This document shows, one piece after another, positions 1 through 46,405 of a stretch of 64,000 nt of DNA (the stretch's first letter is position 1; each line of letters begins with the position of its first letter). Source of the stretch: Ascidiella aspersa (Eukaryota); the NCBI GenBank assembly GCA_963924565.1, contig OZ004609.1:8370001-8434000 (forward strand), written 5' to 3'. Both the position numbers and the translations under genes were made by a program. Below the pieces are notes generated by a model, which had not been told where the DNA came from, made no database searches, and was given only the letters and a program-made list of their open reading frames with translations.

Positions 1-1654
1 TATTTAATGGTGTAACCAGAAAATTTAATCATAACCAAACAATTCGAACATTCTTGTTGTTTGTTGTTCACTTATATTTCTTTGATTAAACCTCTAATGA
101 TACGCATTGCAATAATTCAACAGTACTTTGCGGGCCACGAAAAATTATGTCGCGGGCCTGGGTTTGGACCACCCTGGGCTATACATCGCTTGAAAAGGGA
201 AAATTAGATTACCCGAACGGCCGCTTTTTGGCGCTACGTTGGGATTTGTTTCCCTTATTGACAATAGTGTTTCCCAATATGACAATGAAAGCATCAATAA
301 AGGGCTTTTTAGTATAGGCTTACGTTTTTATTATTGTCGTATGTGGTAATTATTAGGATAACTGTAGGTTAAAATCGCACTTCAGCGGGCAGCATTAAGC
401 AACTGAGGAAGATGAGCACATTTAGCTCTCGTATTAAATATTTAAGTGTTGCTATATTCTATTGAACGTATAAGTTGTATTCTTGTGATGTCACAAAGCA
501 TTCGAGGTAAATGGACAAGAAAACACAAGTAGGCTTTCCAATTAGGTTCTGGAATCACTATTTATTTTACCATATTTTACGACTTCATGGTTTGGTTTTG
601 TGTCAGCCCTGGTAATTCACATCTGGTAAAATTTAGGAGGAAATCCCACATGGTAAGTCCTAGGCGGGCCCATATAGTTTGGCCCCGCTGGTAAAATTAA
701 AGGGAAATTCCCAACAGGTAATAGCGTTGAAGGTGAGCGTACGTCCTCTGCAAAGGGCATATATCGCAAAACAGACTCTGTTTCTTATTATTAACTGTAC
801 GGTTTACGCGACAGAGTTGACTTTTTATTGTTACTAAAGAAACGTTAATATGTATTTTTTATAGAATTATTTGTTCAGCATTTTATAAAAACTTTTAGAT
901 GTTTCAGGCCAGCTTTACTTGCATCTCTAGCTCAGCAAATAATATGCAGAATTCAACTTATTGTTCATTTTATATAGCAATGCCAGGCCTGGGAAGGGAA
1001 GGGCTTTTTAGTATAGAATAAGAATTTGATAAATATGAATTTGGATAAATTAAAGCTTGGGTCATAGGCTTGAGCAAAAGGCTTGAACATTACAGTATAG
1101 GCACAATAACATTTATGTGTAGTGCTCTCTGTCCATTTCACCAGGACTTCAAGTTAGACTTTAGAAAAGTCATGCACCGCTTAAACGAACACTACGGAAG
1201 ACTGAGGGAATCTATGTGAAATTCAAGACAGAACCTTACGATTCGAAATGTAAAGCGCTGTGCAGTCAAAAACAAAGCTGTATCTTCCTTGCCATGTAAT
1301 GACAATTAAGACTGTTCCTGTTACTGATTTAGCGTATGCCCGATGGCCAGTTCTACTTGTTTTTAATTTACATCTCAGTTATTTGTGACTGATTTATTGT
1401 TTCCCTATACGTGAACTATTCTATAAATAACCACAGATGCCACGCTATAACTAGAGCCAGCATAATCATCTATATGTATAACTGATAACCTTGGTACGGT
1501 AACTTTTTATTGGCAACGAACGAAAACTTCTTGAGGTACGATCACAGTCGTAACACGAGGGAAAGTAATTTATAGCTATCAAGTTCGTATAATCGACAAC
1601 CTACTGTACATAAAACGCTGTACATTGCGTAACTATAACCACATGTATATGAGA

Positions 1655-3415
1655 CGGGGATGCGAACATTTTTTGCACAATGTGCGCAAAAATGTGAACG
1701 CCAAAAAGTGCGCACATTTTAAACTGCCTTCAAGAATGTGCGCACTTTTTTAACAATATGCGCACATTTTAAACTGCATTCAAAAATTTGCGCACTTTTC
1801 TTTATATATTGTGCGCATTTTTTTTTCAGAATGTGCGCACTTTTTCAACTAAAAGTTGAAACATTATACAGATAACTCAAACCTTTTTAATCTTATTTTC
1901 TGTTAATTTTTTTAGTAACTGACATGATCTCTGTATTTTTGTGAAAACAAACTAGATACAATTCTATCCTAGTTAAAATACAACTATTGCCTTTTAAAAT
2001 CCTGTTTATACGTTCATTGTCGATAAAAACGATACAACAAAAGCTTGAAAAGAGAGGAGTCGAAGTTAGCTTGAGCTCTACATACCAGCATCAAAACTGC
2101 GCCATAATACCAATATCACGCTGATAACAGTGTGACGGAAACACATTTTGTTTAATACTAACAACATGAGGACGGCACCCAGTTTACAAAAGCTTACAAA
2201 AAACTCCAAAATGTGTCAGTCTTGCAGAAAAGGGTTAGACAAGCTATAATAGACTAAATAATAAAAGTAAAAATCATACATCAACCAGACGAAAAGTCTT
2301 GACTTGGCAAATCCTGTCACCAATTCTGAAATACAAAATTTCAAATGTGAAGTTAGGTGATAACATTTAAATATACAATTATAAAAATAGATGCAAAAAT
2401 ACCTAAATGTTGACATTTTCATCATGTCTCAAATGACACAAACTGGACACTTCCAATCTTCTTCATAGACGGGGGAGGATTTTTGCTCCCAAATTTCCAT
2501 GCAGTGAAAATGGTAAAATCTTTTACACTTACCACAGAGGACCTGTTAGTAATTGTGAAAAACAATAATTTTGTTAAACTACAATATTAAATTATTGGCA
2601 ATTACCGAATGTCTAAATGAGACTGTCCCGTCACAAGCTGTACGTATGTCGTCCAGATTGTCTACAAATAAAAAAGCAAGAATGCCATAATGAAAATAAC
2701 TATTTACATGTAAGAAAAGGAAGTAAATATATATAAACAATACAGGGCTACTTGCATACACAAGCTATAGCAGAATAGCATAAAATGCGATGTGCAAAAA
2801 TTTGCCTTATTTCCTTTATGTTAGAGCTTGATGTATCAAATTCCACCTTTTGTTCAAAGTTTTTTAAAAGACACTTTGCAATCCATTAAGATGAAAATAA
2901 TTTAACCATGTCAAATATGAATTTTCTGCAACAATATTAACCTGTAAAACAGAAATTCCACAACTGTGACTATCTGTTTGTTTGGGGTGGCAAATTTGTC
3001 CTTGTTTTTCATATTTTTTTTTTTATTTTTTTTTTTTTTAAGTTCCAAATTGTCACTAAAATATCGTCTCAAAATGCACATTTCTACCAAAGGGAAGCCA
3101 GCAGCCCGAAATTTCATCGTGTAATATCTTCGGAAGTAACCAAGATTGCGAATCTAACTTTTTAGCCCACAATCAGACTTTTATTAGAAAAAGAAAAAAT
3201 ATTAATATGCGCATTAATTTTCCATGCTTTTAAATATGTACCCTTTTGCGTTTTGAGCAAAAATTGCGCACATTTTTAAAAGCACTTTAAAATGTGCGCA
3301 CATTCTGAAAAAAAGTGCACACATTCTAAAAAGAGTGTGCACATTTTCAAAAGAGTGCGCACATTTCCTCGTGCACATTTTTGCGCACATTGTGCAAAAA
3401 ACCTCCACGTCACTT
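1655..3415. mobile_element. Non-autonomous, internally deleted DNA transposon with long subterminal inverted repeats
   Basis: Perfect 28-bp inverted pair TTTTTTGCACAATGTGCGCAAAAATGTG (1669-1696) / CACATTTTTGCGCACATTGTGCAAAAAA (3374-3401). Each end is backed by an array of palindromic (A)ATGTGCGCACATT-like motifs (~1700-1845 and ~3255-3400). Outer termini are degenerate and no TSD was found, so boundaries are approximate. Confidence 0.75.
2429..3004 (-). pseudogene. Decayed spliced remnant encoding a Ulp1/C48 peptidase C-terminus plus PHD finger (transposon cargo)
   Basis: Minus-strand exons: ~3004-2942 QGQICHPKQTDSHSCGISVLQ (Ulp1-type Q-x5-CG catalytic motif); 2882-~2771 IAKCLLKNFEQKVEFDTSSSNIKEIRQIFAHRILCYS; 2661-2606 NLDDIRTACDGTVSFRHS; 2542-2429 VLCGKCKRFYHFHCMEIWEQKSSPVYEEDWKCPVCVI* (PHD C-x2-C-x4-H-x2-C...W-x-C-x2-C). 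One acceptor reads TGG rather than TAG and the first PHD Cys position is CGT (Arg), indicating decay. Confidence 0.7.
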
Positions 3416-5731
3416 GTTGGGTAACTGGCACTCTTAATAAAAGGTATTCTCAATTGCACTTAGCGATGCGTAAATCTGTCTTTCTACTTTGACGTGGTGC
3501 GCAACACGGTTAGCCTTCTGCAGGATGCAATGATACTATTAAACGATGCATTTCTACTAATCAACTGTATTAGAAAATGTATGAGTGATTGAGCAAAACT
3601 AAGACCATTAGTAAAATGTACACCTTCTTTCCACACGTGGATACAAAAGTTCACTTCATGATAATTACAGACTGGATTTTGGTGGAGTCAATTTTTTATT
3701 TTTAAGGGTCAATTTTGTTTCAGATTTAACGACACTAGTAACGTCACAGCATATTGTTCTCGAACAAAAACGTTACCCCAAAATTGCATTTATTTAGTTA
3801 CTAGGGAACTTGTCAAGCAAAAAAAGCACCATTAATTCCACAACTGAATGACTGAACCTAAATTACGTAAAAAGTTCGCGCAAAGCGCTAAATAGCGTAC
3901 ATTGGGTGTTGCTTCAAAACTTGGGTGAACATTCATCTCGATACAATTTCAACGTTGAAAAGACGTTACAGATTAGCCCACACAGCAAAAAAGACTAGAT
4001 AATTCGGCAGAAGTTACAGTTTGTAGAAAGTTTGTATATACACAGGCCTACACTGTAGTAGTGTATATAAATTAAAACAATAAGAGTCTTTAAGATGACA
4101 GATTCCCTTCAAATGTTCTAAAATTTGTGCAAAATCGAGAAGAATATTCGCATAAATCGTTTTTATAGCATATACTTGCATGTATCAAAGAAATTATCTA
4201 TCTATAAATACAATTGTTTTCAGTCCTACACTACATTAACTGCAACATATATTCCATGTAAAATAATTACATAGAAGCAATGATATCATTTAGACGAGAG
4301 CAACTTACGTGTGACGCTACGGCAATTCAACCTCCTAGTAAGTATTGATTGTAGGCCTAACTTATGGTAATATTCTTTAGCGGATGTGTCCATTTTCGTT
4401 AATTTCGCGAATATGTATTTTTAAACGTGCCACCTGAAGGTTTGTTTACTGTTAGCTGGGTATATAAAATAAAGGTGGAAAGCAAAAACGAAGTTAAACA
4501 TTTTTTGGGACGTTGTTTATCTATTGTCCTTATTTTATCTTTAAAAACACCCCTGAAACCACACCTAACGACAGTCCATCTAAAAAAATAAAAACAATTG
4601 TTAAAAAAAGAGACTTATTTAACACGTTTATCCTATTTGAGCTTGTATTGGAGAAATATGAAAACATTGAAAGTCGTGTTGAAAGATTTACTGAGGTTGT
4701 AGCAGGGATCCTTCTTAACATTTTTCCGCGCAGGAGATTCACTACATTCGAAGGGTTTTAAGTTACCTTTACGAGTTTGTTTTACGATTATTACTAGCAT
4801 TAGTTATATGTTTTTTTGGCTTAAATAGGGTCCAACCAACACGTTTTATAATATATTCTTTGTTTGTACGGCTAACCGAATATACTATATAGTAACTCTA
4901 TTTAGGCACTAATATGTTTAAATAACAATTAGAAAACAGTCTATTTTCTATCGCCTAGGGCCCTATAGTTGTTTGCGTGGGCTCTAAGTAAAACAATGAC
5001 AATCAAGTGACAAGTATAAATAAAACACCTTTTGTTATTTCAAGAGTCAAATATAACTATAGCTTAAAATATTTAATTCCTTATGATTCGTGCTTAATAG
5101 TACTTTAAATAATGGTGGGACAAATATCTCTTCAAATCGTATATTCGACAATAAGAAAAAATAAATAGCCGGATTTGCAGGCGTGGAATTAAATTGCACT
5201 TTATCGGCAATTTAGGTGCTTTTTAAAACGGCTTTTTTAATAAACACCCGTATTCAGTCATGTATTACAAAGCAATAATGGACACTGAATTACGGATATC
5301 GCAGATCGCGTACGATGTTGATGTAAAAAATTCTTACTAAGTACATTGCGCGCACTTTTTCAGTCACCAATATTAATAATTAGCGTATATCAGCAAATGA
5401 TATATAGATCAGTAACAAATTCATGATTGAATGATATTTTAAACACGATTATAATAGATACGTTCGACCTCAAAATATTGGGCGATAAGGTGAAAAAATC
5501 AAGAGTCTTTAATATTGTTTACGTTGATGTAAGCCACAACAACCAATAAGAAAAAATTTTTCAAAAACATGGCACTAAAAGTTATGTATCGAATAGAATA
5601 GAGAAAAGTCATGTGTTGCTCTTCTAAGGTTTTAAACTTGGTCAGTTCAATTTTGTGTGCGAAGAAAAAAAAAGTTAAGGTGCATATTAAATTAAATCAA
5701 ATTAAAGCCCTGAATTTAATGTGTTACGCAG

Positions 5732-8700
5732 AATGCAAGGACAACGGAACTTCCAAAGTCGTCCGATTTGTTCGACCAATTGACTCGGGTTTGGACCAAA
5801 TCCTCCTAATGGAACTTGAGCAGGTGTTTGGTCAGGTCGCTAACGATCCGGTTGCCGTGTATTCGTTGGCTGGTGCGGTCGGCAAAGAGAAATCCTTCAT
5901 GCTCAACTTGTTTCTTCGCTACTTATGGTCGCAGAAGCAAGGAAAGGTAAGTTGGCTTCCAGAGATTGATCATGATAATGTATTATTTTGATTGATCATA
6001 ACTATTCCTTATTTACACCTTTTAATTAATATAGAAACAAAAAATAGACATGGGTACGAACAAAAACAAATCATTTGTGCCCGTAATAGTTCCCATTCTG
6101 TATACACCTAGAAATGTGGGTTTTAAACGTTGTAAAGAGGCGTGTTTACTATTCATAGGTGTATGTAGGAGTTAACCAGGCCCTAACAATCAACGATCCA
6201 ATCTGTATTGCGCTAATTTGAAGCTGTAAATGTAGCAAAAAATAGGTTTTAATCGCGAAGAATAATGCATGTATTTAGATCAGTGTTTCACATTCGCTTT
6301 TTGTTTGCGACTTTGCTGAATGAATTGGCTTCCAACCTTATCAGGGTTAAACTTGACCTTTTTTACACAGTTCAAAAATATATTTTAGCCTAATACGTGG
6401 CTTCACAACAAGGAAGAGCAGCTGGCAAGGTAACATTGTTAGTATATCAGTCCTGCAAATATCCATAATATGACAACACAGCATACCTGAAAAGTGGTTC
6501 ACGAATCGCATGGTAAAGTAGTCTGCAGACAATCGTGCCGCTAAATGTAATATGCCAGTTTACCAATTGCCAATTACCTTATCATATAATCCCTTCTCCA
6601 GGTCGCCTTGTTTCTCATGGATACGCAGGAAGCCTTCGACAGCTCCACTTCAGTAAAAGGCTGTTCCGTCATATTCGCTTTAAGCACGATGATAAGTTCC
6701 GTGCAAATCTACAATGTCATGGAGCAGATACAAGACGCCCTCGAGTATTTAGGGGTATAAGAATAATTAGGCCTAAAATTATTACAATAGATGTATTTTA
6801 GCCAGAAACTAATTCGCAATTGTTTGCCAGATATTCACGGACTACGGCAAAGCGGCCCACAAATGCAGCAGCCTGATCGCAAAACCTTTTCAGGTATGTT
6901 GTCAAAGCATTTTTCGCTCACAAAAATTGATCTAATTGACCGTTTTCTAAGAATTAGGTCATACCATTGATAAGACACAATGTGTTGAAACAAATATAAC
7001 CCTTCTGATCGTTGAAATAGATCAAATGCTATTTGCTTTTACCTACCTAGTGCTGTTTCCACAGGGTATTTTGCGACCTTAACAAGCAACTCTTAGTTTA
7101 CGACGTTACATCCAAAAGCTATATAGTGCAATGTTTAACAAATGGAAACATTTTAGAATCTACTGTTTCTGGTGCGAGATTGGCAGGACCCTGATTACGA
7201 CGTGAAATTGGACTGTCTCGACCCGTCGCACATTATTGGTTTGTTTTCGCCTCACAATGCCGCCATCCAGAGTGTTAACGGCAACATTGTAACGGGAAAA
7301 GCTCCCATCATTTTGAAGCTGGCTGACTTCAACGGCGTTGGAACTGGGAAAATGCCAGACGTCAGGACAATTTTGCAGGTTTTTTTCAATTGTTTCTTTT
7401 GACGAGAAAATGGCCACACAACATTTTTCGAACAACCGGGATGAAAAGCTGTATTCTAAATCGTCGGTCGGTTGATATGATTTCACTCTAGTGTAAAAAG
7501 TTTCGTTATTGACACTTAATTATCGCGAATGTTTGTCAAATGCAAAATTAGTCTAAATTTGAATTGAACTTCACAAAGCGACAACGTCACAAAGCCTAGT
7601 ATACATTTTGATAAAGGTTTGTTTATAATAACTAGGTTAAATAAGGCAAATGTAAACGATCTTCAATTCGTTTCATTCGGGGCAGTCCTTGGCCCTTTAT
7701 ATGAAATGCTTGTTGACCCCCTCGTCAAAAAATGTAAATTTTATGAAGGTTAACCACTTGAGGTAACTAAACTTGTTACATTTAAAGCCAAATATGGCCT
7801 AACAACCATAAAATATCACGTGTCGGACATCAATCAAGATAACCCTATGTGTACTTTGGCTTTTGCAAACGGTATGCAACGCAGAGGGAAAAAACTCCCA
7901 TGTTCCTTATCGCGTTTTTTTACTTTTTATTTTTTTTTTTTGCATTACTGTTAAGTTGGGTTTCAGTATATTTATACACCGCACGGTTTGCGGTATAAAC
8001 CTCCTAAAATAGAACATTAGAAAAAACAGACGTGTTGCCAATGTGTTTATACCAACGAAAACGACATCAACAGAATAAGTGATACTAATTACACCGCTTG
8101 AGTATTTCGTAAGGACTCCAGAATGAGACCTAAAAACGAACAATATCAACGTCAGAATAAAACACAGTTCGGAATAAGACAAAAATATGACTAATACCTG
8201 ATTTTGACTGAGACAAGAAAGTCTATACTGTTTTAATACCTAAGGGTCGTAATACCATATAAATCGGAATTAGTCGTAAATCCATGGAAATAAGAACCGT
8301 GGTTAGAATCAGGCTTGCAACCTTCTACAACCTTCCAAACCCCAAACCCACCTCTAAGAACATAACTAACTCCTCTAACAATTTTAACCATAACTGAATT
8401 TTCTAACCCCTACCATTATCCTCATTAAACCCAAAAAGGGAAAAAATTAAAAAAAGTAGAATCCTAACGGCGCCGTTCAAACTAAGCCGTCAAAATGTCC
8501 ACATCAAAACGTCCGGTGCCATACCGACTTTATTTTTTCGTATATTGTTTTGACGAAAATCCTTAAATAAATAAGAGTTTCTAAATTCTAATTAAAAAAT
8601 TAAAAAAATATTTTTAGGAACAACTTTATTACTACTTACAACGTACAAGCAATCATTATCTATTGTGCTTACTTTTGATGGTCAATTTTAAAAGAAATAA

Positions 8701-22828: not shown

Positions 22829-22849
22829 ACTGTTAGCAGCTCAGGAAAT

Positions 22850-23842
22850 ATGTCGCTGCTAGAAGATAAGAAACTGGTCGATGTGTTTAACGACGTTTGG
22901 GAAATGCACCACCAAATAATCAACAACACAGAGGGTTCTGCTTCAGATAAGATTCAGCAAATCGTAAACGATGCACTTGGCCTGCTGCGGCTTCTGTCTG
23001 ACAGCGTTGAGCAGCTTGGTCTGTTCAGCAGAAACGAAGACCTGGAAGAAATGGTGACCTCCGACCTTCGCTATTTTCTACTTCCGGCCATAACTGCCGA
23101 TGTAACGTCTCACAAAAAGTGTGACATCCAGCAACGCCTTGCACTTCTCACCGACTGCCGCAAACACTTTACCAAGTTTTTGAAATCGTGCCAGAGCTAC
23201 GGATTTGAGCCTCTCGATGCGATAGAGCGTGCCCTCGGTCCACCAACAACAAACCCTGAAAGCAAGGTTATAGTCGGAGGGTCGTCGAAACCTGACGTCC
23301 AAGCGATGTCGACTGCCCGCGACGCAAAAATTAAGAACTACCAGTTGGAAAGGTCAAGGATTAAGAAGCTAAAAGATCTAGAAGCCAGACTGGAGGACGA
23401 AGGAGCCTGCCGGGAATACTGGATGCTGCAGATCCAACAGTGGATCACAACCGCCCTTAAAGAGATGTCAAGCATGCAAGGTGAGCTCAGCATGCTCGAA
23501 CAAATGCGCAACGTGCCGCGAGCCGACTTCGAGCAGGAAAGACAAGAGGCGAGAAAGGGTTCTGGCGTTAAGCCCTTCATGTTGACCAAAGACAAAATGC
23601 AAGCGGCCGTTTTCGGCGCCGGTTATCCGAGCGTGCCCACCGTCACTTTGGAAGAATTCTTTGAGCGCGAGGCCGCGGCTTGCCTCACTCAACAGGCAGC
23701 CAAGGCGCCCCAACCGAACTTAAACGGCGAGAAAGACAGCAGCGACGATGAAACGGAAGAAAAGCTGATGAAACAAAGAGCGATGGACGATTGGAAAGAC
23801 GACCATCGAAGGGGAGCCGGGAATCGCAAAAACATGGGATAA
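22850..23842 (+). CDS. IGBP1: Immunoglobulin-binding protein 1 / alpha4 (TAP42 family PP2A regulator), intronless
   Basis: 330-aa ORF with LGLFSRNEDLEEMVTSDLRYFLLPA, ARDAKI, VFGAGYPSVPTVTLEEF and C-terminal RAMDDWKDDHRRGAGNRKNMG, all characteristic of the TAP42 family. Confidence 0.96.
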   Translation: MSLLEDKKLVDVFNDVWEMHHQIINNTEGSASDKIQQIVNDALGLLRLLSDSVEQLGLFSRNEDLEEMVTSDLRYFLLPAITADVTSHKKCDIQQRLALLTDCRKHFTKFLKSCQSYGFEPLDAIERALGPPTTNPESKVIVGGSSKPDVQAMSTARDAKIKNYQLERSRIKKLKDLEARLEDEGACREYWMLQIQQWITTALKEMSSMQGELSMLEQMRNVPRADFEQERQEARKGSGVKPFMLTKDKMQAAVFGAGYPSVPTVTLEEFFEREAAACLTQQAAKAPQPNLNGEKDSSDDETEEKLMKQRAMDDWKDDHRRGAGNRKNMG

Positions 23843-45054: not shown

Positions 45055-45519
45055 TCAGTGGAAGCCGTTGACGATTGCCACCGGAGTTTCGAGACAGGCG
45101 ATCATGTTGCCGCCCTCCTTCTTATCCTTTAGCATCCATTGGACGACCAAATCAATGTCGGGATAGCTTTTAAGAACCGAGATAGAGGTCGTGTAGCTGT
45201 ACATGGCGCCGTTCTTGAGGGGGCAAGTCAGTCCGCTGTCCATGCAGGCGTTGGGCTGATCTATCGGAAAAGGCACGGAAACGCCGCTAATGATACCGTT
45301 AATTGCAGAGTGCGCCTCGTCGGAATCTTCCAGCATCTTGAACGTGGCTTTAATGGTGTACTTCTGGCCCTTCATTAGTTTACAGGGGCTCATAGTGCAA
45401 GGAGCTAGCGTGACATTGGTCAGCTTGCCCACCTTGGAGCCGCAGTCCTTGTATGTAATGTCGGCGCGCGCCGTCGCTAGCACGAAGGCGGCCGCCAGGA
45501 GAGTACAAAGCAACTTCAT
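45055..45519 (-). CDS. NPC2: NPC intracellular cholesterol transporter 2 (ML-domain protein), intronless CDS
   Basis: 154 aa: signal peptide, YKDCGS, PC...PC.L.KG, GVSVPFP...NAC..SGLTCPL..G..YSY, V.KSYP...LVVQW.LKD, six conserved Cys. Confidence 0.93.
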   Translation of the reverse strand: MKLLCTLLAAAFVLATARADITYKDCGSKVGKLTNVTLAPCTMSPCKLMKGQKYTIKATFKMLEDSDEAHSAINGIISGVSVPFPIDQPNACMDSGLTCPLKNGAMYSYTTSISVLKSYPDIDLVVQWMLKDKKEGGNMIACLETPVAIVNGFH

Positions 45520-46405
45520 TTTTGCTATTGATGTTGATGCTTTTTAGCGCTACTGGAAACCTGAAATAGTTAGATACAAACGAACGATCATCAGCGAGAG
45601 ACTCAAACCACACAACCGGGTTATTATCAATGAATACGGGAAAACAAAAGCAGTATAACTACATTTAAACTGACAACAAATTTGTTTTTATTTACTAAGC
45701 GTTTGGCCCACAAGTAATTGCTTTCCTGTTATATCTGGATTTTGTCACCATACAAAGTAGGCTACATTAAATCACTTTGCATCAGTTTTGAAATGCTAAT
45801 TGCAATAACTGAACTTTTTTGTGCCCCATGCAACAGTCATTGCTCCAATGTCTTGCCTAGGTTGACTAACGACCTGCGACTAAAGTGATAGCACCCACCA
45901 GGTACGACGCAGTATTTCCGTGTGTGCATAGCGAACACCCTTTACTGCCACCAGCGTACGCTTGTTCTAAACAACAACACGGAAAAATCATAGTCGTCCC
46001 GCAATTATTAAAAACTAATAAAATCAGTGTAATTATTGAATGCTATAAACAATGGTTAAAACAGATTACTTAACTTATAAATAAACTAACTGTAAAATTG
46101 TGGTTGTAAATTCCATTTATTTCTATAAAAACAAAATGTTTTAAAACTTTAGCGCATGTATGGAAAGGAGACGAAGGATTTTATCGTTAATAGTTTGAAT
46201 CAAGCTTCTGCCTTTCTGCCTTGTAAAGAAAAAGAATTATAAAAAAGATCCAAAATGGCAACCTATTTTCTCAACAATGCAAAATAGGGAAAGCCCCTGT
46301 TATAGTGTTATTAACACGTCACTCATAAATTCAAAGTATTTTGTTTTGGCGTATATAATTAAATGTTTAGGCGTACATTGAAACTTTCCTAGGAAACACA
46401 ATACG
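45520..46405. promoter_or_regulatory. Probable bidirectional promoter/outron region between divergent NPC2 and STX18
   Basis: Start codons are 886 bp apart, head-to-head. Splice-acceptor-like TTTCAG on the minus strand (45566-45561) and CCTAG on the plus strand (ending 46392) lie just upstream of each ATG. Inferred from geometry only. Confidence 0.5.

What the first reader, a model, noticed from the sequence alone, without database searches (positions are those of the whole stretch)
1655..3415. DNA transposon remnant carrying spliced Ulp1 SUMO-protease and PHD-finger exons
Seen: between 28-bp perfect inverted repeats lie four minus-strand exons that the ORF track does not reveal. They encode HPKQTDSHSCGISVLQ...IKEIRQIFAHRIL and (R)TACDG...CGKCKRFYHFHC...WKCPVC. 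Known: Q-x5-CG is the catalytic signature of C48/Ulp1 peptidases, and Ulp1 and/or PHD domains occur as accessory domains in Ginger1, Mutator (KAONASHI) and Zisupton elements. Inference: this is a deletion derivative of a transposon family coupling deSUMOylation to histone-tail reading, a possible anti-silencing module. The transposase itself is absent here and the superfamily cannot be assigned from these termini.
Basis: partly seen in the sequence, partly recalled or inferred. Interest (0 to 1): 0.7.

Follow-up and report, generated by a model that had tools for sequence, protein, structure and literature searches.

The report
Dead Zisupton-like transposon with protease tail
This is a broken, cut-down copy of a sea-squirt jumping gene that kept only the last four exons of its transposase gene (part of a SUMO-protease-like domain and a PHD zinc finger); the copy is most likely ordinary debris, although a related full-length family in the same genome is transcribed and spliced.

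Summary
The element runs 1651-3419; the 28-bp perfect repeat lies 18 bp inside asymmetric ends. It belongs to a family with at least 59 left ends in this genome and 8-bp target duplications (15 of 29 paired copies exact, 6 with one mismatch; this copy has none). The four exons match the last four exons of sister elements: 41 of 111 residues identical without gaps, same exon sizes. Those sisters carry a C2H2-SWIM-CxC4-SAP DDE transposase gene ending in Ulp1 and PHD, so this is a Zisupton-like (CxC4-type KDZ) element, not Ginger, Mutator or hAT. One sister family is transcribed and spliced at the equivalent junctions. This copy is dead: no transposase, no catalytic His/Asp exons, both splice sites of one exon lost, first PHD cysteine lost, neutral divergence from a second copy. 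No autonomous parent with these ends was found. Ulp1/PHD tails on transposases are published for Ginger1 and Mutator, and this scan noted similar elements in two other genomes. The anti-silencing role is plausible for the intact sisters but untested. Ordinary; interest 0.25.

The parts
1651..3419 (.). Whole non-autonomous element, 1769 bp; flanks carry no target-site duplication
   Evidence: End pairing against 50 fetched loci and the window
1651..1668 (+). Terminus A (begins GAGACGGGG), at the 3' end of the gene remnant
   Evidence: 59 exact matches of the 26-mer pattern in the genome, control 0; read ends pile up at 1650-1651
1669..1696 (+). Left arm of the 28-bp perfect sub-terminal inverted repeat
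   Evidence: 51 exact genomic matches, control 0
1697..1850 (.). Left array of TGTGCGCAC-type sub-terminal repeats, likely transposase binding sites (inferred)
1860..2428 (-). 3' untranslated part of the gene remnant, shared with the C2 and C4 copies
2429..2542 (-). Exon D (114 nt with stop): second half of the PHD finger
   Evidence: Pfam PHD 27.2 bits; AG acceptor intact
2606..2661 (-). Exon C (56 nt): first half of the PHD finger; first zinc-binding Cys replaced by Arg (Cys in the C2 copy)
2771..2882 (-). Exon B (112 nt): C-terminal helices of the C48 domain; acceptor and donor both mutated in this copy
   Evidence: same length in sister families 2 and 3
2942..3001 (-). Remnant of exon A: oxyanion Gln and catalytic Cys motif of the C48 domain; 5' part eroded into an A-rich tract
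3085..3165 (.). Fragment of a different dispersed repeat lying where the rest of the transposase gene was deleted
   Evidence: about 40 other places match only this stretch; 0 of 8 inspected have the family's sub-terminal repeat nearby
3248..3373 (.). Right array of sub-terminal repeats
3374..3401 (-). Right arm of the 28-bp perfect inverted repeat
3402..3419 (-). Terminus B (begins CAACA), a variant shared with the other two exon-bearing copies

Best explanation
The locus is an internally deleted copy of a multi-exon DNA transposon, most likely of the Zisupton-like (CxC4-type KDZ) kind, that keeps both ends and the last four exons of its transposase-Ulp1-PHD gene and is now most likely non-functional. 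Shown: family ends, 8-bp target duplications in other copies, homology and matching exon sizes with sister elements whose gene begins with the transposase, and damage to this copy. Inferred: an autonomous parent lost most of its reading frame by internal deletion; the shortened element was copied in trans at least to three sites by a transposase binding the sub-terminal repeats, as were many shorter MITE-like derivatives; it then decayed. In the intact sisters the Ulp1 domain probably removes SUMO-type modifiers around the transposase's site of action and the PHD probably binds chromatin; neither activity was tested.
For: TSD: 15 of 29 A/B pairs exact 8 bp, 6 more with one mismatch, none exact at 9. 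The exon-bearing C4 copy has an 8-bp TSD with one mismatch. Sister family 2 (C6:3.535-3.543 Mb) has the same end types, an 8-bp TSD, CxC4 (E 5.5e-8), and a C-terminal stretch 41 of 111 identical without gaps to the window peptide (score 219; best of 1000 shuffles 63). Exon sizes 112/56/114 are the same in window and family 2. Family 3 (C5:6.71 Mb, C7:14.65 Mb) shares the GAGACGGG end, the TGTGCGCAC motif and 8-bp TSDs and is spliced in RNA at the equivalent junctions, 10-19 reads each, none in DNA reads. Its closest named relative (Ciona, 48% identity over the core) folds as a DDE transposase (ISCth4 Z 9.7, rmsd 3.7, 209 aligned). Decay: splice sites and PHD Cys lost; pN/pS about 1.3 against the C2 copy (13.5 replacement, 2.5 silent changes); no RNA reads on the exons in run X7.
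Against: This copy has no TSD. No autonomous element with exactly these ends was found, so the link to the transposase is through sister families. The Pfam KDZ model PF18758 does not hit the sister families or their relatives, and the original Zisupton sequence could not be compared. The gene points towards the GAG end here and in family 4 but away from it in families 2 and 3. The pN/pS count is small.
Confidence: 0.88

Rival explanations
1. A MITE-like element captured (transduplicated) the tail of another transposon's or a host gene's Ulp1-PHD gene; the ends and the exons come from different parents.
For: Most paired copies with these ends are short (160-2008 bp) and only 3 places plus one fragment hold the exons; gene orientation relative to the ends differs from families 2 and 3; a foreign repeat fragment lies inside; no parent with both ends and transposase was found.
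Against: The closest homologues of the exons are the tails of elements with the same end types and TSD length, not host SENP genes; family 4 has the same orientation as the window, so the orientation occurs among transposase-bearing relatives; the exons are only about 34-37% identical to families 2 and 3, so they were not taken recently from those.
Confidence: 0.07
2. The remnant is a selected anti-silencing or regulatory module that makes a small Ulp1-PHD protein.
For: The four exons still join in frame without a stop; SUMOylation is needed for piRNA-guided silencing in Drosophila (bioRxiv 2021.07.27.453956, abstract); run X1 holds the stretch.
Against: Catalytic His and Asp exons absent in all three copies; exon B splice sites lost; PHD Cys1 lost; exons diverge about as fast as introns and UTR (16 of 282 versus 60 of 769 aligned bases) with pN/pS about 1.3; zero RNA depth over 2391-3246 in a run that gave 517 reads on family 3.
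Confidence: 0.02
3. The parent belongs to another superfamily with Ulp1/PHD tails (Mutator, Ginger1) or 8-bp TSDs (hAT).
For: Ulp1 and PHD are documented in Ginger1 and Mutator transposases (PMC2836005); long ends with sub-repeats recall Mutator/Foldback (recalled); the best structural match of the relative's core is a Mutator-related IS256 transposase (family label recalled).
Against: TSD is 8 bp, not 4 (CCGG) and not 9; ends are not TGT; the sister proteins carry CxC4 and no hAT, MULE or rve Pfam domain.
Confidence: 0.03

Closest known systems
Zisupton / KDZ DNA transposons (Bohne et al. 2012; Iyer et al. 2014; neither held; features from passages of PMC12730594 and PMC9297572, rest recalled)
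   Same: 8-bp TSD, terminal inverted repeats, multi-exon gene, KDZ-associated cysteine cluster (CxC4) in sister elements, SAP-like and SWIM-like parts, C-terminal SUMO-protease-like domain (last three recalled as Zisupton traits).
   Different: This copy has no transposase; the sisters are CxC4-type and do not hit PF18758; ends are asymmetric in their outer 18 bp; a PHD follows the Ulp1 domain; no F-box or CxC7 seen.
Unnamed CxC4-transposase proteins of other ascidians and fish: Ciona XP_026690518 (P0043), Clavelina XP_076799422 (P0183), Styela XP_077967989 (P0191), loach XP_055075144 (P0198)
   Same: Form one clade with family 3 (ascidian group 100/99, with the loach pair 100/100); P0198 has C2H2, CxC4, SAP, C48, PHD in the same order; the window peptide hits the Clavelina Ulp1-PHD tail.
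   Different: Annotated only as uncharacterised host proteins; their ends and TSDs were not examined here.
Ginger1 transposons with Ulp1 and PHD (PMC2836005, passages)
   Same: Transposase with a C-terminal Ulp1 domain, in one family followed by PHD; introns present.
   Different: Gypsy-like integrase, 4-bp CCGG TSD, TGT ends; none of these here.
Plant Mutator elements with Ulp1 (KAONASHI / VANC-KIU; PMC13317346, passages)
   Same: Ulp1 domain carried by a DNA transposon; the carrier gene is tied to escape from silencing.
   Different: Separate accessory gene in non-TIR MULEs, not a transposase tail; the review says the function of the Ulp1 domain is unknown.

Membership tests
Zisupton / KDZ transposons | 8-bp target-site duplication | tested here: met
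   Family: 15 of 29 pairs exact, 6 with one mismatch; sisters: 3 of 3 complete elements. This copy itself has none.
Zisupton / KDZ transposons | Terminal inverted repeats | tested here: met
   Imperfect outer 18 bp, perfect 28-bp inner repeat, sub-terminal arrays
Zisupton / KDZ transposons | Multi-exon gene | tested here: met
   Four exons here; 14 listed splice-type joints in family 3 RNA, 12 with GT-AG ends
Zisupton / KDZ transposons | KDZ-associated cysteine cluster upstream of the catalytic core | tested here: met
   CxC4 over the cut-off in sister family 2 and in the Ciona, Styela and loach relatives; absent from the window by deletion
Zisupton / KDZ transposons | Pfam KDZ transposase domain PF18758 | tested here: not met
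   14 genomic matches, none at families 2-4; no hit in 13 sister segments or 33 related proteins. Atlas clusters mixing PF18758 and CxC4 are a lead only. Hence filed as Zisupton-like, not Zisupton in the strict sense.
Zisupton / KDZ transposons | RNase H-fold DDE-type catalytic core | tested here: met
   For the Ciona relative only: model pLDDT 81, top VIA matches all transposases or integrases; conserved D, D, D-x-x-H, E columns shared with family 3. Foldseek gave no match at E 0.001.
Zisupton / KDZ transposons | SWIM and SAP domains (recalled) | tested here: inconclusive
   CxC...CxH motif seen; SAP E 0.02, under cut-off; structural matches Z 4.2-4.5
Zisupton in the strict sense | Clusters with platyfish Zisupton in a transposase tree | not testable with these tools
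   Reference sequence and paper not available
C48 / Ulp1 peptidase | Oxyanion Gln and catalytic Cys with the following helix | tested here: met
   21.7 bits on own C48 profile, 0 of 500 shuffles; Clavelina homologue 41.6 bits on Pfam C48
C48 / Ulp1 peptidase | Catalytic His and Asp | tested here: not met
   Exons absent from the window, C2 and C4 copies; present in families 2 and 3
C48 / Ulp1 peptidase | Cleaves SUMO (rather than NEDD8 or ubiquitin) | not testable with these tools
   Needs an enzyme assay
PHD finger | C4-H-C3 zinc ligands | tested here: not met
   Seven of eight present; Cys1 is Arg here, Cys in the C2 copy and the sisters. Pfam PHD over cut-off on the last exon.
PHD finger, H3K4me3-reading type | Aromatic cage residues (recalled) | tested here: inconclusive
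   Family 2 keeps two Trp positions and its best PDB matches are CXXC1, PPS, BPTF, Alfin; the window has Ser and Phe there; binding untested
Ginger1 | 4-bp CCGG/CCGT TSD and TGT ends | tested here: not met
Mutator | About 9-bp TSD (recalled) and MULE transposase | tested here: not met
   At 9 bp every one of 29 pairs has 3 or more mismatches; no MULE domain in sisters
hAT | hAT transposase | tested here: not met
   No hAT Pfam domain in 17 sister-element segments; 8-bp TSD alone is shared

The most novel reading that the evidence does not exclude
Ascidians host living, fully spliced Zisupton-like transposons whose single protein joins a DDE transposase to an intact Ulp1 protease and an H3K4me3-type PHD finger, and this tail strips SUMO from silencing factors at the element's own chromatin. 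The expressed family-3 transcript, which lacks the three lesions of the assembled C7 copy, would be a ready test case, and the window remnant a fossil of a further family in which the gene is flipped relative to the asymmetric ends.
Probability: 0.2. Interest if true: 0.6.

Novelty: new member of a known kind. Interest (0 to 1): 0.25.

Why it matters
The locus itself is transposon debris and matters little. It leads to something more useful: several Zisupton-like families in an ascidian genome, with defined ends, an 8-bp TSD with a target preference, and one family that is transcribed and spliced from transposase to PHD. Why unrelated transposases keep gaining Ulp1, OTU and PHD tails is still open (PMC2836005 suggests a repair role; PMC13317346 calls the function unknown). 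An expressed intact animal example makes that testable, but the idea is not new and nothing here shows the function.

Tried and rejected
Pfam on single exons: C48 not hit by exon A or B. Search for an autonomous parent: KDZ-core exon query gave 10 places, Cys-exon query 5, CxC4 3, PF18758 14; none of the 20-kb regions inspected around them holds a long element with the window's ends. One 50-bp MITE of the family lies near C3:5.04 Mb by coincidence. The family-3 model found no further coding remains in the loci around the 51 exact repeats (one exon of that model was in the wrong frame, corrected). Family-2 exon 2 was in the wrong frame; the conclusions use only its last four exons. Homologue search with a 200-aa family-3 exon found nothing. 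Foldseek against PDB: no match at E 0.001. PDB sequence search with the Clavelina tail hit only a PHD, no SENP. No RNA holder was listed for the window stretch; this is no evidence either way. Depths from Logan contigs were not used as copy numbers. The genome-wide look-up of earlier notes gave three unrelated findings. Papers not held: Bohne 2012, Iyer 2014. Passages of PMC3424704, PMC7599744, PMC9446614 and PMC5751038 added no defining features. No supplements were opened; those of PMC12730594 may list Zisupton termini that bear on the classification.

Full report
Observation. The 28-bp perfect inverted repeat is at 1669-1696 and 3374-3401 and stops there. They lie in four exons, 3001-2942, 2882-2771, 2661-2606 and 2542-2429, which join in frame. 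The last exon scores 27.2 bits on Pfam PHD, over the cut-off of 24; the other three exons have no Pfam hit of note. A C48 profile built here from 35 domains (9 database proteins, 26 of 30 fetched genomic PF02902 loci; none from this family or families 2-4) scores the first 57 residues at 21.7 bits, with 0 of 500 shuffles reaching it.

The ends. The window lies in a 309-Mb, 75-contig genome; nearest named relatives of its proteins are ascidian. The 28-mer has 51 exact matches and a 26-nt pattern of the left end 59, controls 0. Reading 50 fetched loci showed that the repeat is sub-terminal: copies begin GAGACGGGG at one end (A) and CAACAGGGG at the other (B). The element is therefore 1651-3419. 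Of 29 A/B pairs, 15 have an exact 8-bp target duplication, 6 one mismatch, 2 two mismatches and 6 none, the window copy among the last; two of the exact pairs share their TSD and nearly their flanks and may be one duplicated insertion. At 9 bp every pair has at least 3 mismatches. Among 21 TSD-bearing copies (160-2008 bp) the target is biased: read on both strands, the base before the TSD is C or T in 39 of 42 and the first TSD base is C in 28 of 42.

Other copies of the interior. The interior occurs at C2:20.919 Mb (90%, all four exons), C4:21.005 Mb (3' part and an exon-A-like piece, between both ends, TSD with one mismatch) and as a 171-bp fragment on C6. These three copies share a variant B end found at only one further place. 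So the exons travelled with the ends; chance bracketing is excluded.

Sister families give the transposase. The PHD exon found an element at C6:3.535-3.543 Mb (family 2) with ends GAGGAGGGG and CAACAGGGG, an 8-bp TSD, and a gene with C2H2, a SWIM-like motif, CxC4 (33.2 bits, cut-off 26.9), Ulp1 and PHD. Its last exons are 112, 56 and 114 nt, as in the window, and align without gaps at 41 of 111 identities (score 219, best of 1000 shuffles 63). Family 3 (C5:6.708-6.716 Mb, C7:14.646-14.655 Mb) starts GAGACGGG, has TGTGCGCAC repeats and 8-bp TSDs, and holds the whole core. Family 4 (C5:7.79 and 7.29 Mb) is a degraded relative. In families 2 and 3 the gene runs away from the GAG end; in family 4 and the window it runs towards it. 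Inversion by recombination between the inner repeats is a possible cause (inference).

Family 3 is expressed. About 6% of RNA run X7 put 517 reads on the C7 copy, nearly all on one strand over the gene, which in the usual stranded library is the sense transcript. Fourteen listed splice-type joints have 5-21 reads each and none in DNA run X6; four of them flank the exons equivalent to the window's. The reads have Trp where the assembly has a stop (17 of 17), Gly after the catalytic Cys where it has Val (17 of 17), and lack a frameshifting base (17 of 22), so an intact copy or allele exists outside this assembly. This is one run, from an individual not matched to the assembly.

Classification. 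The family-3 core is 48% identical to a Ciona protein and groups with Ciona, Clavelina and Styela proteins (100/99), next to a loach protein with CxC4, SAP, C48 and PHD (24 rows, midpoint root for drawing only). The Ciona model (pLDDT 81) matches DDE transposases and integrases (ISCth4 Z 9.7, rmsd 3.7, 209 aligned; Tn5 Z 8.2), though Foldseek found nothing significant. Zisupton is described as multi-exonic (PMC9297572, passages) with TIRs and 8-bp TSDs (PMC12730594, passages). Against strict membership: PF18758 does not hit these families; its 14 genomic matches belong to another lineage without the window's ends or exons in 8 of 8 regions inspected. I file the element as Zisupton-like, CxC4-type. 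Ginger1 (4-bp TSD, TGT ends; PMC2836005, passages), Mutator and hAT fail their tests.

This copy is dead. It lacks the transposase and the exons with the protease's His and Asp. Exon B has lost acceptor and donor, and the first PHD cysteine is Arg; the C2 copy keeps these but has a 4-base insertion in exon A. Between the two copies exons B-D differ at 16 of 282 bases, introns and UTR at 60 of 769, and pN/pS is about 1.3 on 16 changes. Run X7 gave no depth over 2391-3246 and no splice joint. Contigs of run X2 span both junctions of the element, so it is no assembly artefact. No autonomous parent with these ends was found; searches score only the best candidates.

Mechanism. Shown: ends, TSD length, homology, splicing in the sister, decay here. 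Inferred: internal deletion of an autonomous parent, then cut-and-paste mobilisation in trans through the sub-terminal repeats. For the tail in intact elements, the likeliest role is local removal of a SUMO-type modifier by a chromatin-tethered transposase. Family 2's PHD best matches CXXC1, PPS, BPTF and Alfin PHDs, known H3K4me3 readers (recalled), and SUMOylation is required for piRNA-guided heterochromatin in flies (bioRxiv 2021.07.27.453956, abstract). A role in transposition or repair is the published alternative (PMC2836005). I put anti-silencing at about 0.2.

Novelty. Ulp1 with PHD on a transposase is in print for Ginger1 and Mutator, and the pair recurs among CxC4 relatives: C48 in 7 and PHD in 9 of 25 long proteins at E 0.01. 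The scan noted the same kind of element in two other genomes (not checked by me, seen after I had formed this reading). I found no paper on such elements in tunicates: 'Zisupton' with 'tunicate' gave one unrelated listing, with 'HMGXB3' none, with 'SUMO' and 'transposon' four; the two founding papers are not held. Verdict: new member of a known kind, interest 0.25.

Noticed in passing
L127:2897-10000 (G000:C7:14.646-14.655 Mb) and L123/L124 (C5:6.708-6.716 Mb): Family 3: near-complete multi-exon Zisupton-like element; RNA reads show an intact, spliced transcript lacking the lesions of the assembled copies.
   Followed up: partly
L125/L126 (C2:13.62 Mb) and L129/L130 (C7:17.86 Mb): Intronless CxC4-type elements whose frame ends in Ulp1, PHD and a SprT-like metalloprotease domain; the same triple tail occurs in a sea cucumber protein and three unnamed ones.
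   Followed up: partly
Families at window, C6:3.54 Mb, C5:6.71 Mb, C5:7.79 Mb: Ends are asymmetric (GAG type and CAAC type) and the gene's direction relative to them differs between families.
   Followed up: partly
L002:711-882 and 2996-3030 (C2 copy): The A end is preceded by an inverted duplicate of the element's own B-side region, as expected from an insertion into itself or a sister chromatid.
   Followed up: no
21 TSD-bearing copies among L021-L070: GC-rich palindromic target preference around the 8-bp TSD in a 35% GC genome.
   Followed up: partly
L165-L190 (C2:7.17, C5:15.33, C5:15.49, C9:14.0, C8:18.7, C1:1.73, C3:10.84 Mb): A second, PF18758-positive KDZ lineage, degraded and unrelated to the window's family.
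   Followed up: no
window 3085-3165: Fragment of another dispersed repeat with about 40 matches.
   Followed up: no
window 1000-1640 and 3460-4200: DNA run X6 has almost no depth on the flanks although it covers family 3 well; a missing or strongly diverged haplotype is possible.
   Followed up: no
L081, L083-L085 (C1:28.28-28.33 Mb): Four tandem PF02902 genes within 40 kb, two weakly matching the window's Ulp1-PHD peptide; more than 40 C48 matches genome-wide.
   Followed up: no
window 5602-5988 (+), 22829-23839 (+), 45058-45543 (-): Host genes: a first exon that looks atlastin-like (recalled; no Pfam hit), an intronless TAP42-like gene and an ML-domain gene.
   Followed up: no
L124 (C5:6.717-6.723 Mb): Beside family 3: a Harbinger-like two-gene element (label recalled) and a frame with two PHD fingers.
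   Followed up: no
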